From Candidatus Enterousia sp. (GTDB taxonomy: Bacteria; Pseudomonadota; Alphaproteobacteria; Rs-D84), in the NCBI GenBank assembly GCA_045648865.1, contig JAZROU010000073.1, positions 1 through 43,118 of the forward strand: a DNA stretch of 43,118 bases, in the 5' to 3' direction. The notes under the pieces were generated by a model, which saw only the letters and a program-made list of their open reading frames with translations, ran no database searches and was not told the DNA's origin. The position numbers were made by a program, and so were the translations under genes. Shown here piece by piece: positions 801 to 2,816 of the stretch (the stretch's first letter is position 1; each line of letters starts with the position of its first letter).

Positions 801-870
801 AATAATTCATCTAAAAACAAAACCGACAACTTATGTAGCTTCTGTACACTGCGTTGTCGGTTTTGTTTTT
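801..870 (+). repeat. 70-nt hairpin repeat, copy A (probable intrinsic terminator of yebC)
   Basis: Perfect 13-bp stem 818-830/853-865, 22-nt loop, T5 tail. The 16-nt 5' flank AATAATTCATCTAAAA and 19/22 loop positions are identical to copy B at 6257-6326. Confidence 0.8.
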
Positions 871-912: not shown

Positions 913-941
913 TTGACTTTTTATATGTAAAGGAATAACAT
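913..941 (+). promoter_or_regulatory. candidate promoter TTGACT-17-TAACAT
   Basis: -35 at 913-918 and -10 at 936-941. The predicted start site falls at about 948-949, on the ATG of the Thr-rich mini-ORF, so the transcript could be leaderless. Confidence 0.35.
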
Positions 942-948
942 TGCCTTT

Positions 949-1005
949 ATGAAAATGTTTGGTTTGTTTTTTACAACAACTACTACAACCCCGTTGGGGG
1001 TATAA
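949..1005 (+). CDS. 18-codon Thr-rich leader-peptide-like ORF (MKMFGLFFTTTTTTPLGV)
   Basis: ATG 949, TAA 1003-1005. Six consecutive Thr codons (aca aca act act aca acc, 973-990). Lies 78 nt upstream of thrS. Too short for the supplied ORF track. Confidence 0.5.
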   Translation: MKMFGLFFTTTTTTPLGV

Positions 1006-1011
1006 ATTCTA

Positions 1012-1040
1012 TTGCGGTGCGTGGCACAAATTCTTATAAT
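1012..1040 (+). promoter_or_regulatory. candidate promoter TTGCGG-17-TATAAT directly upstream of thrS
   Basis: -35 at 1012-1017 and a perfect -10 at 1035-1040. It competes with the attenuation reading of the upstream mini-ORF. Confidence 0.4.
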
Positions 1041-1082
1041 CAAACAGTTAATCAAATTTAAAAAATATAAAAGGCATTTATT

Positions 1083-2816
1083 ATGGCATATGATATTGAA
1101 TTAATACGTCATTCGTTGGCACACGTTATGGCGGCAGCGGTGAAAAAATTACACCCAGATGTTAAATTCGCAGGGGGACCCGCGATTGAAAATGGGTTCT
1201 ATTATGATTTTGATACAGAATATCGTTTTTCCGAAGAAGATTTTGCAAAAATTGAAAAAGAAATGCGGGATTTGATTAAATCAAATGGACGCTTTGAACA
1301 GAAAATTGTATCCCTGGACGCGGCCAAAGAAATCTTTGCCGACCAGCCATATAAAATGGAATGGTTGAATGAATATGATGCCGCAGGCGAGGCATTGTCA
1401 ATCTATACTTTCCGTGATTTTACGGATTTGTGTCGTGGGCCACATGTGGAAAGTTCCAAAGATTTGCCACGGGACGCGTTTAAAATTCGCAGTGTGGCCG
1501 GTGCATACTGGAAGGGGGATGCGAAAAATAAAATGTTACAACGTATCTATGTCGATGCGTTCGCCAGCAAGGAAGAATTGGATAATTTCCTGAAAATGCA
1601 GGAAGAAGCCGCCGCGCGTGATAATCGTAAACTGGGTAAGGATATGGATTTGTTCCATTTCGAACCTGAATATGCGCCGGGGTCGGTGTTCTGGCACGAC
1701 AAGGGGTACAAAATTTATCGTCGCCTGATTGAATATGTACGTCATCGTCAGGAATTAGCAGGATACCAAGAAATTTCAACGCCGGCCGTTATGGACAGGT
1801 GTTTGTGGGAACGGTCAGGCCATTGGGCAAAGTATGGGGAACACAACTATTCAGGAAAAACCCAGGATGGCAAGGTGTTCTGTATTAAGCCTATGTCATG
1901 TCCTGGTGGAATGTTGGTGTTTGGGCATGGACTTCGTTCGTACAAGGATTTGCCACTGTATATGGCGGAATTTGGCAAGGTGCATCGCTATGAGGCGGCA
2001 GGTGGTTTATCGGGCCTGATGCGTGTGCGCGAATTTACCCAGGACGATGCGCATATTTTTTGTACCGAAGAACAATTGGAAGAAGAAGTTGTTAAAATCC
2101 TGCGATTTATCAAGGATATTTATGGCAAGTTTGGATTCGATAAAATTACCATGAAATTAGCCACGCGCAAGGAATCTGAGTTCCGTATCGGGTCTGACGA
2201 AATCTGGGACAAGGCCGAGGGGGCATTAAAGCATGCGCTGGATGCAAATGGTATCGAATATGAAATTGCCGAAGGTGATGCAGCGTTCTATGGGCCGAAA
2301 ATCGATAACTATCTGCGCGATTCAATGGGGCGCGTGTGGCAGTGTGGTACCGTGCAATTGGATATGAATTTGCCAGAACGATTCGATTTGTCTTATGTTG
2401 GCGAAGATGGTGAAAAGCATCGGCCGATTATGTTGCATCGTGCAATGTTGGGGTCGATTGAGCGGTTTATGGGAATCTTGCTGGAATCAACAGGTGGTAA
2501 TTTGCCACTGTGGTTGTCGCCAGAGCCTGTTGTGGTGACGCCAATTTCGCAAAAGCATGCAGAGTATGCAAACGAAGTTGTGGCGGCATTGCGGTCGGCC
2601 GGCGTTAATGCACGTGCCGATTTAAGGGATGAAAAAGTAAACTATAAAATCCGTGAACTGTCGTTGGCAAAAACACCAATCATTGCAGTTGTTGGTGAAA
2701 AAGAAATGGCAGAAAAAAATGTCACGTTGCGTCGGTTGGGTGTGGAAAAACAGGAATCTGTGCCAATGGCGGATTTCGTTGAAATGATGAAAAATAGTGT
2801 GAAAATGCCGTTGTAA
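1083..2816 (+). CDS. thrS: threonine--tRNA ligase (lacks the N-terminal TGS domain)
   Basis: 577 aa. Has the HSLAH editing-domain motif. Zinc-ligand contexts MSCPGG, DDAHIF and MLHRA are present. It aligns from memory to E. coli ThrRS starting at about residue 65. Confidence 0.93.
   Translation: MAYDIELIRHSLAHVMAAAVKKLHPDVKFAGGPAIENGFYYDFDTEYRFSEEDFAKIEKEMRDLIKSNGRFEQKIVSLDAAKEIFADQPYKMEWLNEYDAAGEALSIYTFRDFTDLCRGPHVESSKDLPRDAFKIRSVAGAYWKGDAKNKMLQRIYVDAFASKEELDNFLKMQEEAAARDNRKLGKDMDLFHFEPEYAPGSVFWHDKGYKIYRRLIEYVRHRQELAGYQEISTPAVMDRCLWERSGHWAKYGEHNYSGKTQDGKVFCIKPMSCPGGMLVFGHGLRSYKDLPLYMAEFGKVHRYEAAGGLSGLMRVREFTQDDAHIFCTEEQLEEEVVKILRFIKDIYGKFGFDKITMKLATRKESEFRIGSDEIWDKAEGALKHALDANGIEYEIAEGDAAFYGPKIDNYLRDSMGRVWQCGTVQLDMNLPERFDLSYVGEDGEKHRPIMLHRAMLGSIERFMGILLESTGGNLPLWLSPEPVVVTPISQKHAEYANEVVAALRSAGVNARADLRDEKVNYKIRELSLAKTPIIAVVGEKEMAEKNVTLRRLGVEKQESVPMADFVEMMKNSVKMPL

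What the first reader, a model, noticed from the sequence alone, without database searches (positions are those of the whole stretch)
913..1082. Thr-rich leader-peptide-like ORF (six consecutive Thr codons) immediately upstream of thrS
Seen in sequence: ATG 949 opens MKMFGLFFTTTTTTPLGV-stop, and thrS starts at 1083. Established knowledge: runs of cognate codons in short leader ORFs sense charged-tRNA supply in attenuation systems such as E. coli thrL (thr operon) and pheM (upstream of pheST). E. coli thrS itself uses translational autorepression, and Bacillus uses T-boxes. Inference: translation of the Thr run may couple thrS expression to Thr-tRNA charging. The TTGACT-17-TAACAT promoter would start transcription at the ATG, giving a leaderless peptide. 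Caveats: I find no convincing terminator/antiterminator pair downstream. There is only a CCCC/GGGG hairpin at the ORF end and a weak GTGC/GCAC hairpin with no U-tract. A good TTGCGG-17-TATAAT promoter lies between the mini-ORF and thrS. Any control might therefore be Rho-dependent or translational, or the ORF might be fortuitous.
Basis: partly seen in the sequence, partly recalled or inferred. Interest (0 to 1): 0.62.

Follow-up and report, generated by a model that had tools for sequence, protein, structure and literature searches.

The report
Threonine-codon leader gene before thrS
An 18-codon gene with six threonine codons in a row lies just before the threonyl-tRNA synthetase gene in every sampled species of this small-genome gut bacterium (Candidatus Enterousia), and it almost certainly lets ribosomes report the supply of charged threonine tRNA to that gene through an unusually stripped-down RNA switch.

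Summary
ORF 949-1005 reads MKMFGLFFTTTTTTPLGV-stop and thrS starts at 1083.

It is not fortuitous. All 51 aligned Enterousia species (ThrRS 77-96% identical) keep the same unit:
- Promoter P1 ends 6-10 nt before an ATG that has no Shine-Dalgarno, so the mRNA is leaderless.
- A 17-21-codon ORF carries 4-8 Thr codons that vary synonymously.
- An invariant hairpin, ACCCC-nnnn-GGGGU, is built from the last Thr-Pro-x-Gly-Val codons.
- A stop codon follows at once, then a U-rich stretch.
- A second real promoter, P2 (TTGCGN-16/17-TATAAT), carries a covarying RNA hairpin in its spacer.

A serine-codon twin (…SSSSSSPLGE-stop, hairpun UCCCC/GGGGA) precedes serS. The same Thr hairpin module precedes thrABC in many Bacteroidota and thrS in a Saccharibacteria MAG.

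No antiterminator, anti-Shine-Dalgarno pairing, T-box or tRNA mimic exists. Metatranscriptome contigs begin at the leader and run into thrS.

Best reading: a ribosome stalled on the Thr codons masks the hairpin, so more P1 transcripts reach thrS, while P2 gives a baseline. The sensing role is well supported. The output step is inferred.

It is a new variant of a known kind. Precedents are pheM-pheST and Streptomyces thrL-thrS.

The parts
801..870 (+). Long hairpin plus T-run after yebC (intrinsic terminator). It insulates the leader unit from upstream transcription.
   Evidence: Sequence. Only weak, sub-threshold Rfam hits. It shows that this organism does use canonical hairpin plus U-run terminators.
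913..918 (+). P1 -35 hexamer TTGACT
   Evidence: TTGAC/TTGAT-type hexamer in 51/51 relatives, with a 17-nt spacer in 49/51.
936..941 (+). P1 -10 hexamer TAACAT, 7 nt before the leader ATG
   Evidence: TAnnnT in 51/51. The distance to the ATG is 6-10 nt in 49/51, so transcription should start at or within about 3 nt of the AUG.
949..1005 (+). Leaderless leader ORF MKMFGLFFTTTTTTPLGV-stop (18 codons)
   Evidence: Conserved in all Enterousia loci, 17-21 codons, hydrophobic N-terminal part. An SD-like sequence is present upstream in only 1/51. RNA contigs begin at 950 and at ATG-1 in a relative.
973..990 (+). Run of six Thr codons (ACA ACA ACT ACT ACA ACC), the presumed sensing codons
   Evidence: Relatives have 4-8 Thr with synonymous variation. 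The three codons next to Pro are almost always Thr. In the serS twin the run is Ser.
988..1001 (+). Hairpin H1: ACCCC / GUUG loop / GGGGU, encoded by the Thr(ACC)-Pro-Leu-Gly(GGG)-Val codons
   Evidence: five pairs kept in 49-51 of 51 sequences, invariant. ACC 51/51 and GGG 51/51 show a constraint at nucleotide level. The outer pair A:U becomes U:A in the serS twin (UCCCC/GGGGA). The same hairpin occurs in Bacteroidota thr leaders.
1003..1013 (+). Stop codon TAA directly after H1, followed by a U-rich stretch (UAAAUUCUAUU). It is a possible weak terminator or pause tail and also the A+T-rich region upstream of the P2 -35.
   Evidence: The consensus R-UAA-UUUCUAUUU is conserved. The stop is UAA in 33 and UAG in 12 of the 49 sequences that fit the counting pattern.
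1012..1017 (+). P2 -35 hexamer TTGCGG
   Evidence: TTGCGN/TTGCAC starts 6-9 nt after the stop, except +13 in L009, in the 50 of 52 sequences that matched the P2 pattern.
1017..1027 (+). Hairpin H2 (GUGC-GUG-GCAC) inside the P2 -35/spacer. It is an RNA hairpin of P1 transcripts.
   Evidence: A hairpin is present in 51/51. Pairs covary (position 6: GC 22, CG 14, AU 6, UA 2, UG 3, GU 2). Loop 3-9 nt. Mean z -2.25 against spacer shuffles.
1035..1040 (+). P2 -10 hexamer TATAAT (proximal, probably constitutive thrS promoter)
   Evidence: the spacer is 16-17 nt in the 50 of 52 sequences that matched; wherever the hexamer is AATAAT it is preceded by TGn (extended -10), a compensatory pattern expected of a real promoter.
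1070..1074 (+). thrS Shine-Dalgarno (AAAGG) at the end of an A-rich, unstructured 5' UTR
   Evidence: An SD-like sequence precedes thrS in 49/51. There is no excess complementarity of this region to the leader.
1083..2816 (+). thrS, threonyl-tRNA synthetase, 577 aa, without the N-terminal TGS domain
   Evidence: Pfam (tRNA_SAD, tRNA-synt_2b, HGTP_anticodon). Relatives.

Best explanation
The region is a cis-acting, ribosome-read sensor of charged tRNA-Thr for thrS. It is built as a minimal leader-peptide attenuator.

Proposed sequence of events:
1. Promoter P1 starts transcription at, or within about 3 nt of, the leader AUG. A ribosome therefore loads on the 5' end without a Shine-Dalgarno.
2. 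After eight mostly hydrophobic codons the ribosome meets six Thr codons.
3. The last Thr codon (ACC) and the Pro codon form the 5' arm of a small GC hairpin (H1). The Gly and Val codons form its 3' arm, and the stop codon follows at once.
4. When Thr-tRNA is well charged, the ribosome runs to the stop and leaves. H1 then folds. Together with the following U-rich stretch it halts or ends most P1 transcripts before thrS.
5. When Thr-tRNA is scarce, the ribosome stays parked on the Thr codons and covers the 5' arm. H1 cannot form and P1 transcripts run on into thrS.
6. The ribosome itself is the only antiterminator. There is no alternative RNA helix.
7. The second promoter, P2, just behind the leader, gives the essential gene a constant baseline.

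What is shown:
- the anatomy;
- its conservation;
- codon-level and nucleotide-level selection;
- the Ser twin;
- RNA contigs that join the leader to thrS.

What is inferred:
- that stalling occurs;
- that H1 is the negative element;
- the direction of control;
- the role of H2, which remains unexplained.

My odds are about 0.85 that this is a Thr-tRNA-sensing leader. They are about 0.4-0.45 that the output is H1 masking of termination or pausing as described.
For: - **Conservation next to thrS.** The leader is present in 52/52 loci with ThrRS 77-96% identical, although upstream genes differ. It is also present in more distant alphaproteobacterial MAGs (ThrRS 47-69% identical to L128).
- **Selection for Thr as such.** Synonymous ACA/ACT/ACG/ACC turnover and a variable run length of 4-8.
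- **Selection for H1 at nucleotide level.** ACC 51/51, GGG 51/51, five invariant pairs. In some Bacteroidota and the Saccharibacteria MAG the stop codon lies in the hairpin loop, so the hairpin, not the peptide tail, is what is kept.
- **Placement of the cognate codons.** They sit where a stalled ribosome would cover the 5' arm: the three codons next to Pro are Thr in 47-51 of 51.
- **Codon identity tracks the synthetase.** Before serS the same scaffold carries Ser codons and the hairpin UCCCC/GGGGA, with the outer pair swapped A:U to U:A and the last residue changed from V to E.
- **Same module before thr biosynthesis genes.** It precedes thrA-thrB-thrC in dozens of Flavobacterium, Bacteroidales and Alistipes genomes, which must be switched on by Thr shortage. 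In Bacteroidales, Thr codons ACAAC pair with GUUGU after the stop and a U-run follows, that is, a canonical terminator whose 5' arm is the Thr codons.
- **Leaderless geometry**.
- **Hairpin extension.** In 34 of the 49 sequences that fit the counting pattern the Val codon is GUG, which lengthens H1 (UACA/UGUA) so that AUUUCUAUUU follows the stem directly.
- **RNA evidence.** Metatranscriptome contigs start at the leader and continue into thrS. X27 record 10 covers 950-1172. X27 record 14 starts 1 nt before the ATG of a relative. X25 record 1 (3242 nt, depth 18) starts in the Thr run and has no coverage upstream.
- **Precedents.** pheM-pheST (cited in PMC1262725), and leaderless thrL-thrS, leuL2-leuS, trpL2-trpS and alaL-alaS in Streptomyces lividans (PMC8079986).
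Against: - The consensus scan calls no canonical terminator. The tail after H1 is only moderately U-rich, and in the window itself (Val = GTA) the stem is only 5 bp.
- No antiterminator exists. The H1 3' arm has no excess complementarity to anything downstream (mean z 0.5), and the leader 5' part has none to the thrS ribosome-binding site (mean z 0.09).
- There is a kinetic problem. A ribosome that follows RNA polymerase closely would also cover H1 when Thr-tRNA is plentiful. A single hairpin therefore separates 'stalled' from 'passing' only if transcription and translation are loosely coupled or polymerase pauses. Nothing here shows that.
- H2 covaries, so it acts as RNA in P1 transcripts, yet the model gives it no necessary role. 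One relative (L233) keeps P2 and H2 without any Thr ORF.
- The Saccharibacteria example has no U-rich tail at all.
- The RNA evidence comes from assembled contigs of related strains. Contig ends can arise from strain branching, and DNA carry-over cannot be excluded.
- There are no experimental data for this organism, which is uncultured.
Confidence: 0.55

Rival explanations
1. The sensor is the same but the output differs. The ribosome stalled on the Thr run does not relieve termination at H1. It acts in one of three other ways:
- It protects the leaderless 5' end and so stabilises the whole P1-thrS mRNA, as a stalled ribosome stabilises erm mRNAs.
- It changes hairpin-dependent pausing of polymerase at H1/H2.
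- It changes how P1 traffic occludes the tightly abutting promoter P2 (transcriptional interference). In that case termination at H1 just before the P2 -35 would free P2.
For: - No canonical terminator and no alternative helix.
- Flavobacterium thrA leaders with the same H1 also lack a terminator and lack a significant 2:3 pairing.
- The Saccharibacteria leader has H1 only.
- P2 starts a conserved 6-9 nt after the stop (+13 in L009), and H2 lies inside it, which suggests functional coupling of leader and P2.
- H2 would place a hairpin-dependent pause on the P2 -10.
- RNA contigs show that read-through transcripts exist.
Against: - Bacteroidales versions do have a canonical terminator made from the Thr codons.
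- The interference version needs the stalled ribosome not to cover H1. Yet the conserved Thr codons are the ones that abut H1.
- Flavobacterium leaders have no second promoter, so interference cannot be the general mechanism.
- Nothing here measures stability.
Confidence: 0.25
2. The mini-ORF is an independent small-protein gene. It has its own promoter (P1) and its own hairpins (H1, H2) that act as terminator or 3'-end stabilisers. The peptide (hydrophobic head, poly-Thr, PLGV tail) has a function of its own, and thrS is served by P2 alone.
For: - It has its own conserved promoter, followed by two hairpins and then a separate complete promoter for thrS.
- Peptide length is conserved at 17-21 aa and the N-terminal part is hydrophobic.
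Against: - The peptide tail is dictated by the hairpin (ACC 51/51, GGG 51/51). It is dispensable where the stop lies in the loop.
- The N-terminal residues vary freely.
- The run changes to Ser exactly where the downstream gene is serS.
- The same module precedes thr biosynthesis genes in another phylum.
- RNA contigs join the leader to thrS.
Confidence: 0.08
3. The ORF is incidental. The conserved elements are only DNA or RNA signals (promoters, UP-like A+T stretch, hairpins), and the Thr run is a by-product of an ACA/ACT-rich sequence.
For: - H1 and the promoters are conserved at nucleotide level.
- The whole-leader fold is unremarkable.
Against: - The ATG, the reading frame and the stop are kept in 51/51.
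- The third positions of the Thr codons vary while positions 1-2 do not.
- Run length changes in steps of three.
- Homopolymer mini-ORFs of other residues are at background level.
- The Ser twin exists.
Confidence: 0.02
4. H1 or H2 is a ThrRS-binding operator that mimics the tRNA-Thr anticodon arm, as in E. coli thrS translational autorepression. Alternatively, the leader is a T-box-like tRNA sensor.
For: Two hairpins lie in the thrS leader, as in the E. coli operator (resemblance only).
Against: - The loops of H1 (GUUG, UUUG, UGCG, CACG, CGCG ...) and of H2 (3-9 nt, unrelated sequences) are not conserved and carry no anticodon-like NGU in a 7-nt loop.
- The hairpins lie 60-90 nt from the thrS ribosome-binding site.
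- No Rfam T-box or any other family is hit, even at E ≤ 10.
- This ThrRS lacks the N-terminal domain.
Confidence: 0.02

Closest known systems
pheM leader / pheST attenuator of Escherichia coli (leader-peptide attenuation of an aminoacyl-tRNA synthetase operon; cited in PMC1262725, details from my own knowledge)
   Same: A short upstream ORF rich in the cognate codons controls a synthetase gene by ribosome position. The logic is 'low charged tRNA gives more synthetase'.
   Different: pheM has a Shine-Dalgarno and a terminator with a mutually exclusive antiterminator. Here the mRNA is leaderless. The only conserved helix next to the codons is encoded in the last five codons of the ORF. No antiterminator exists, and a second promoter is nested behind the leader.
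Leaderless leader peptides before aaRS genes in Streptomyces lividans TK24: thrL-thrS (MKRVRPFLETTPGFVPAR), leuL2-leuS, trpL2-trpS, alaL-alaS (PMC8079986); predicted trpS/leuS attenuators (PMC1262725)
   Same: The leader ORF is leaderless and lies in front of thrS. One hairpin follows without a clear U-run. Even a T-T-P-G stretch is shared.
   Different: The Streptomyces peptide has only two Thr, and its conservation and mechanism were not analysed. There is no sequence relationship. The Enterousia unit has 4-8 Thr, an invariant hairpin fused to the run, a stop directly after it, a nested promoter with its own hairpin, and a Ser twin.
E. coli thr operon leader thrL (Rfam Thr_leader RF00506)
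   Same: A run of Thr codons overlaps the 5' arm of the first hairpin of the leader.
   Different: It controls biosynthesis genes, and it has the 1:2 / 2:3 / 3:4 alternative helices and a strong terminator. cmscan finds no match here.
Thr-codon leaders before thrA/thrB in Bacteroidota (found here in Flavobacterium, Alistipes and other Bacteroidales; not in Rfam; the only peptide leader reported for the phylum that I found is Bacteroid-trp, PMC2864571 supplement)
   Same: The core is identical: Thr run ending ACC, CCN, loop, GGG, GUN, with the stop in or right after the hairpin, followed by UAAUUU.
   Different: The ORFs are longer (about 33 codons) and the downstream genes differ (thrABC, not thrS). 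The promoters are of Bacteroidota type. There is no nested sigma-70 promoter, and the downstream conserved elements differ.
Polycysteine leaderless short ORFs of mycobacteria (bioRxiv 10.1101/834739) and the E. coli pyrBI attenuator (own knowledge)
   Same: The mycobacterial ORFs are leaderless sensing ORFs with runs of one codon. In pyrBI the terminator hairpin lies inside the leader ORF, so the ribosome itself prevents its folding.
   Different: The amino acid and the genes differ. pyrBI senses UTP through polymerase pausing, not tRNA charging.

Membership tests
Classical leader-peptide transcription attenuator (trpL, thrL, hisL, pheM type) | Short ORF with a run of codons cognate to the regulated gene, directly upstream and on the same strand | tested here: met
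   ORF 949-1005 with six Thr codons, 77 nt before thrS. Conserved in 52/52 close relatives. Ser twin before serS.
Classical leader-peptide transcription attenuator (trpL, thrL, hisL, pheM type) | Rho-independent terminator (GC hairpin directly followed by a U-run) between the leader ORF and the gene | tested here: inconclusive
   The scan finds none. H1 plus R-UAA-UUUCUAUUU is at best a weak terminator. It is lengthened to 8 bp where Val is GUG, in 34 of the 49 sequences that fit the counting pattern. Canonical versions exist in Bacteroidales and in L128.
Classical leader-peptide transcription attenuator (trpL, thrL, hisL, pheM type) | Antiterminator helix mutually exclusive with the terminator | tested here: not met
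   Constrained folds show no conserved alternative. Duplex energies of the H1 3' arm against downstream sequence are no better than shuffles (mean z 0.5).
Classical leader-peptide transcription attenuator (trpL, thrL, hisL, pheM type) | Read-through rises when the cognate charged tRNA falls | not testable with these tools
   The organism is uncultured. Only contigs of metatranscriptomes are on hand.
Rfam Thr_leader (RF00506) and every other Rfam 15 family | Match to the covariance model | tested here: not met
   cmscan of 600-1400 at E ≤ 10 gives only spurious sub-threshold hits on the yebC terminator and none on 913-1082. The Flavobacterium leader also gives none.
T-box riboswitch (usual control of thrS in Firmicutes) | Specifier loop, T-box sequence, terminator/antiterminator; leader of about 200 nt or more | tested here: not met
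   No Rfam T-box hit. Only 134 nt separate the P1 start from thrS.
E. coli thrS translational operator (tRNA-Thr anticodon-arm mimic) | Hairpin(s) with a conserved 7-nt anticodon-like loop next to the thrS ribosome-binding site | tested here: not met
   The loops of H1 and H2 vary in sequence and length. They lie more than 50 nt from the Shine-Dalgarno.
Leaderless leader ORFs before aaRS genes (Streptomyces thrL-thrS type, PMC8079986) | Transcription starts at the leader start codon | tested here: inconclusive
   Promoter geometry fits: the -10 ends 6-10 nt before the ATG in 49/51 and there is no SD in 50/51. RNA contigs start at ATG+1 and ATG-1. There is no true 5'-end mapping.
Leaderless leader ORFs before aaRS genes (Streptomyces thrL-thrS type, PMC8079986) | Cognate codons followed by a hairpin without a clear U-run, upstream of the cognate synthetase gene | tested here: met
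   There is no sequence homology to the Streptomyces leader, so this is likeness of design, not common descent.

The most novel reading that the evidence does not exclude
A portable, re-codable minimal attenuator. It consists of a leaderless ORF with a run of sensing codons. Its last five codons (ACC/UCC-CCN-NNN-GGG-GUN/GAN) encode the only regulatory hairpin, and the stop follows at once, so the ribosome itself is the sole antiterminator.

The same cassette has been re-coded from Thr to Ser within one genome (thrS, serS). It is also shared, by transfer or by convergence, between gut Alphaproteobacteria (thrS), Saccharibacteria (thrS) and Bacteroidota (thrABC).

In Enterousia it is in addition wired to a nested promoter whose spacer encodes a second, covarying RNA hairpin of unknown role. 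This may be a new way of coupling a ribosome sensor to promoter choice.
Probability: 0.4. Interest if true: 0.72.

Novelty: new variant of a known kind. Interest (0 to 1): 0.6.

Why it matters
- **Undescribed control of synthetase genes.** Textbook control of synthetase genes is by T-boxes (Firmicutes), by protein autorepression (E. coli thrS) or, rarely, by classical attenuators (pheST). This gut lineage, with a roughly 1-Mb genome, uses a much simpler ribosome-read device for at least two synthetases. I found it in neither Rfam nor the searched literature.
- **A question about the minimum needed for attenuation.** The device has no antiterminator. It therefore asks how little RNA is needed for amino-acid-specific attenuation, and how a single hairpin tells a stalled ribosome from a passing one.
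- **Possible spread or repeated invention.** The same hairpin-plus-codon-run core occurs before thr biosynthesis genes in Bacteroidota and before thrS in a Saccharibacteria MAG. A widespread uncatalogued leader class may exist that spreads or re-evolves easily.
- **Annotation value.** Such 17-21-codon ORFs are missed by gene callers. They mark genes whose expression reports tRNA charging in uncultured gut bacteria.

Tried and rejected
- **Rfam.** Scans of the window region and of a Flavobacterium leader gave no relevant family.
- **Whole-leader fold.** The MFE is not better than shuffles (z -0.18).
- **Anti-SD pairing.** The pairing of UGCCUUU (942-948) with the thrS Shine-Dalgarno in that fold lies upstream of the predicted transcript start. 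It is not supported in relatives.
- **Alternative helices.** I searched with the ribosome-covered part masked and with duplex energies against shuffles. Neither an antiterminator nor sequestration of the thrS ribosome-binding site was found.
- **Second ORF.** An ORF starting at the TTG of the P2 -35 (1012-1104, overlapping the thrS start) is not conserved; it is 2-26 codons in relatives.
- **tRNA-mimic operator.** Loops are not conserved.
- **H2 as a protein operator.** Arms covary and the arm spacing varies from 3 to 9 nt, which fits RNA and not a dimeric DNA-binding protein.
- **Flavobacterium 2:3 pairing.** The conserved UUUUCACAUAUAAUCC can pair with GGGGUAUA, but no better than shuffles (mean z -0.02).
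- **His-run mini-ORF.** One found in L121 is not before hisS and looks fortuitous.
- **Archaeal and Firmicute relatives.** These relatives of this ThrRS type show no Thr-run ORF by my criterion.
- **Miscounted pattern.** My first collection scan used a hairpin pattern with one base too many and found nothing. The corrected pattern worked.
- **Second RNA-run search.** A search with a rumen species gave only marginal holders.
- **Tools shut.** The twin was shown in the nearest relative's MAG (L287, the same assembly as L006).
Full report
**1. The observation.**
ATG 949 opens ATG AAA ATG TTT GGT TTG TTT TTT ACA ACA ACT ACT ACA ACC CCG TTG GGG GTA TAA, which is MKMFGLFFTTTTTTPLGV-stop (949-1005). 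thrS begins at 1083 and encodes a 577-aa ThrRS with tRNA_SAD, class II core and anticodon-binding domains but no TGS domain.

The distal promoter-like site is TTGACT(913-918)-17-TAACAT(936-941), and it ends 7 nt before the ATG. The proximal one is TTGCGG(1012-1017)-17-TATAAT(1035-1040). The 'CCCC/GGGG' hairpin is A988-C992 / G997-U1001 with loop GUUG. The 'GTGC/GCAC' hairpin is 1017-1027.

The consensus scan finds no canonical terminator. The whole leader folds no better than shuffles (z -0.18). Rfam has no match at E ≤ 10 on 913-1082. Upstream lies yebC (79-795) with a long canonical hairpin-plus-T-run terminator at about 801-870.

**2. Who it is and whether the ORF is conserved.**
ThrRS relatives in one genome per species identify the organism as Candidatus Enterousia, a gut alphaproteobacterium. 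One relative is a 958-kb circular chromosome.

Every locus with ThrRS 77-96% identical (52 of 52 with readable upstream DNA) has a mini-ORF of the same design 77-114 nt before thrS. In L053 the gap is 214 nt because of an inserted palindromic element. Typical peptides are MNLFKSFFTTTTTTPLGV, MKKYFIFFVTTTTTTPAGV and MKQIWFIFTTTTTTTTPAGVR. The next group (ThrRS about 60% identical, another gut alphaproteobacterial family) has none.

The genes upstream of the unit differ between species, so the ORF travels with thrS.

Codon statistics over 51 aligned sequences:
- The codon before Pro is ACC in 51/51.
- The next codons back are Thr in 51, 47, 43, 40 and 41 of 51, using ACA, ACT, ACG and ACC.
- Gly is GGG in 51/51.
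- Peptides are 17-21 residues long (one is 26), with 4-8 Thr.

Run length changes by whole codons. In a census of mini-ORFs with five or more identical residues in all held loci, Thr gives 145 hits and the next residue gives 11. The ORF is therefore under selection as a translated Thr run. Its last five codons are in addition under nucleotide-level selection.

**3. Anatomy conserved in the genus**.
- **(a) P1.** A TTGAC/TTGAT-type -35, a 17-nt spacer in 49/51 and a TAnnnT -10. The -10 ends 6-10 nt before the ATG in 49/51. An SD-like sequence precedes the leader ATG in 1/51, against 49/51 for thrS. This is the geometry of a leaderless mRNA.
- **(b) The ORF.**
- **(c) H1.** ACCCC-nnnn-GGGGU, five pairs kept in 49-51 of 51 sequences. 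It is invariant, so there is no covariation within the thrS set. In 34 of the 49 sequences that fit the counting pattern the Val codon is GUG. This adds UACA/UGUA with one bulged A.
- **(d) The stop.** UAA in 33 and UAG in 12 of those 49 sequences, directly after H1, then UUUCUAUUU.
- **(e) P2.** TTGCGN (or TTGCAC, TTGTGC) starts 6-9 nt after the stop in all but one species (L009, +13), with a 16-17-nt spacer in the 50 of 52 sequences that matched the pattern, then TATAAT. Wherever the hexamer is AATAAT it is preceded by TGn, an extended -10. This compensation argues that P2 is a real promoter.
- **(f) H2.** A 3-6-bp hairpin whose 5' arm starts inside the -35 hexamer. It is present in 51/51, the loop is 3-9 nt, and the total promoter spacing is kept. 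The arms covary: GCGG/CCGC, GCGA/UCGC, GCGC/GCGC, GCGU/ACGC, GCAC/GUGC and GUGC/GCAC. At 5'-arm position 6 the pairs are GC 22, CG 14, AU 6, UA 2, UG 3 and GU 2. Mean z is -2.25 against shuffles of the spacer. Covarying arms with variable spacing mean RNA, so P1 transcripts must reach at least this far.
- **(g) The 5' UTR.** A 40-56-nt A-rich stretch after the P2 -10 in most species, ending in a good Shine-Dalgarno.

**4. What is not there.**
With the ribosome-covered part masked, no conserved alternative helix appears. The H1 3' arm plus tail has no excess complementarity to downstream RNA (mean z 0.5). The 5' part of the leader has none to the thrS ribosome-binding site (mean z 0.09).

A second ORF starting at the TTG of P2 is not conserved. 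The loops of H1 and H2 are not conserved, so neither mimics a tRNA-Thr anticodon arm. There is no T-box.

**5. Evidence from elsewhere.**
The hits fall into three groups.
- **Enterousia and other alphaproteobacterial MAGs, always before thrS.** These include distant ones such as L128 (ThrRS 49% identical, MNKQFVLFTTTTTPLGV). There the second hairpin is followed by UUUUUCC and the proximal -35 is degenerate.
- **Dozens of Flavobacterium, other Flavobacteriales, Alistipes and other Bacteroidales, Marinilabiliaceae and Fluviicola genomes.** A roughly 33-codon ORF ending …TTSTTTTTPFGV-stop lies 62-190 nt before thrA (AA_kinase plus homoserine dehydrogenase) and thrB, or before thrB-thrC.
- **A Candidatus Saccharibacteria MAG (L175).** It has MRQGISFRITTTTP-stop, with the stop inside the hairpin loop, 54 nt before thrS.

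In three Bacteroidota the stop also lies in the loop. The hairpin, not the peptide tail, is therefore the conserved object. In Bacteroidales and Marinilabiliales the Thr codons ACAAC pair with GUUGU just after the stop and a U-run follows. This is a canonical terminator whose 5' arm is the sensing codons.

Rfam has no family for the Flavobacterium leader. Its conserved UUUUCACAUAUAAUCC can pair with GGGGUAUA, but no better than chance.

**6. The serine twin.**
Earlier notes of this scan said that Enterousia has a Ser-codon twin before serS. I tested this myself. A partial serS found in L002/L006 served as the query for serS loci.

Roughly half of the 79 species examined carry, 61-122 nt before serS, ORFs such as MKNRFVFFSSSSSSPLGE, MKRVFTFFSSSSSPLGE and MTLKFVFFSSSSSPFGE. 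L287, from the MAG that is the nearest relative of the window, has MKTGFVFFSSISSPLGE.

The scaffold is the same:
- its own promoter close to the ATG;
- a hydrophobic head;
- the codon run;
- the hairpin UCCCC-nnnn-GGGGA;
- UAA and a U-rich stretch;
- a TTGCGA…UCGCA hairpin inside a second promoter.

The outer pair of the hairpin changes from A:U (Thr ACC / Val GUN) to U:A (Ser UCC / Glu GAN). This is covariation between paralogous leaders. It explains why the last residue is V in one and E in the other. The identity of the run follows the identity of the synthetase. This is the strongest argument that the run is read as a measure of the cognate charged tRNA.

**7. RNA evidence (weak but consistent).**
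Only assembled contigs of gut metatranscriptomes were on hand, all from related strains.
- X27 record 10 covers window 950-1172 and begins at 950.
- On L003, X27 record 14 begins 1 nt before the leader ATG.
- X25 record 1 is a 3242-nt contig of depth 18. It begins in the Thr run, 29 nt after the ATG, and runs through the hairpin region into and beyond thrS. X25 has no coverage upstream.

So thrS mRNAs that include the leader exist. This speaks against 'all thrS transcripts start at P2'. Contig ends can also come from strain branching, and DNA carry-over cannot be excluded.

**8. Mechanism.**
The conserved Thr codons are the ones that abut and enter the 5' arm of H1. A ribosome waiting for Thr-tRNA on any of them would cover that arm, so starvation should mean 'H1 open'. 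The same core controls thr biosynthesis genes in Bacteroidota, which must be turned on by Thr shortage. Open H1 must therefore mean ON, and closed H1 must be the negative element.

The simplest reading is that H1, with its U-rich tail, is a weak terminator or pause signal for P1 transcripts, and that the ribosome is the only antiterminator. P2 supplies a baseline for an essential gene.

I commit to this reading, with stated doubts:
- The tail is a poor U-run in the window.
- A closely coupled ribosome would also mask H1 in plenty. Discrimination then needs loose coupling or polymerase pausing. The strong stop context UAAU right after the hairpin would at least clear the ribosome quickly.
- H2, which clearly acts as RNA, has no necessary role. 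L233 keeps it together with P2 where the Thr ORF is absent.

The rivals keep the sensor but change the output: mRNA stabilisation by the stalled ribosome, hairpin-dependent pausing, or interplay of P1 traffic with P2.

**9. Comparison with what is known.**
Leader-peptide control of synthetase genes is established for pheM-pheST. It has been predicted for Streptomyces trpS and leuS (PMC1262725) and for hisS paralogues in Bacillus (PMC2965389).

RNA-seq of S. lividans reported leaderless leaders before leuS, trpS, alaS and thrS. The thrS one is MKRVRPFLETTPGFVPAR, with two Thr, one hairpin and no U-run (PMC8079986). Leaderless polycysteine ORFs act as attenuators in mycobacteria (bioRxiv 10.1101/834739). 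For Bacteroidetes, the only peptide leader I found reported is Bacteroid-trp (PMC2864571, supplement).

The kind is therefore known. The following features are new as far as my searches reach:
- the design has no antiterminator;
- the hairpin is encoded in the ORF;
- the leader is leaderless;
- a promoter is nested behind it;
- it has been re-coded between Thr and Ser;
- its core is shared across phyla.

It fails the defining tests of the classical attenuator (no antiterminator, no clear terminator). I therefore file it as working like a leader-peptide attenuator, not as a member of the thrL or pheM families.

**10. Verdict.**
The mechanism is partly open. The finding is a new variant of a known kind. 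Interest is 0.6: a specialist would not be surprised that a synthetase has a leader peptide, but the minimal architecture, the Thr/Ser re-coding and the cross-phylum core are worth a bench test.

Noticed in passing
L357:1217-1273 (serS starts 1363); also L287, L279, L282, L285, L301, L303 and others: There is a serine-codon twin of the thrS leader in front of serS in many Enterousia species (MKNRFVFFSSSSSSPLGE-stop). It has the hairpin UCCCC-nnnn-GGGGA, its own close promoter, and a second promoter with a TTGCGA..TCGCA hairpin. Roughly half of the sampled species lack it.
   Followed up: yes
L081:2493-2597 (thrA starts 2673); likewise L084, L092, L098, L101, L104, L143, L150 and others: Bacteroidota thr operons (thrA-thrB, or thrB-thrC in Alistipes) are preceded by a roughly 33-codon ORF ending TTTTTPFGV-stop. 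It has exactly the same ACCCC-nnnn-GGGGU hairpin as the Enterousia thrS leader. There is no Rfam family for it. In Flavobacterium a 16-nt block, UUUUCACAUAUAAUCC, follows and is conserved for an unknown reason.
   Followed up: partly
L175:117-161 (thrS starts 216): A Candidatus Saccharibacteria MAG has a Thr-run mini-ORF (MRQGISFRITTTTP-stop) with the same hairpin, the stop codon in its loop and no U-rich tail, 54 nt before thrS. An apparent tRNA 3' end lies just upstream.
   Followed up: no
window:1083-2816: This ThrRS lacks the N-terminal TGS domain. Outside the Enterousia-like clade, the closest relatives of the clade's ThrRS (queried with the L128 protein) in the species-genome collection are Clostridia and Selenomonadales and DPANN archaea (Woesearchaeota, Nanoarchaeota) at 43-47% identity, not other Alphaproteobacteria. 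This hints at an acquired synthetase type.
   Followed up: no
L053: about 2330-2470 (between the proximal promoter and thrS): A palindromic insert of about 130 nt (GTCATTCCCGCGCAGGCGGGAATAGGG ... CCCTATTCCCGCCTGCGCGGGAATGAC), which looks like a miniature inverted-repeat element, has landed in the thrS 5' UTR of one species. The leader and both promoters are undisturbed.
   Followed up: no
L233: about 150-215 (thrS starts 240): One 'Rickettsiales bacterium' MAG keeps the proximal promoter with its spacer hairpin (TTGCGATTTTCTCGC...TATAAT) but has no Thr-run ORF or H1. Three others (L202, L204, L207) have no leader, and L210 and L234 have decayed runs (TKATT, TKTTT). The leader has been lost repeatedly.
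   Followed up: partly
window:801-870: There is a long perfect hairpin with a T-run directly after yebC. It gives only sub-threshold Rfam hits (miRNA and sRNA models) and is most simply an intrinsic terminator.
   Followed up: no
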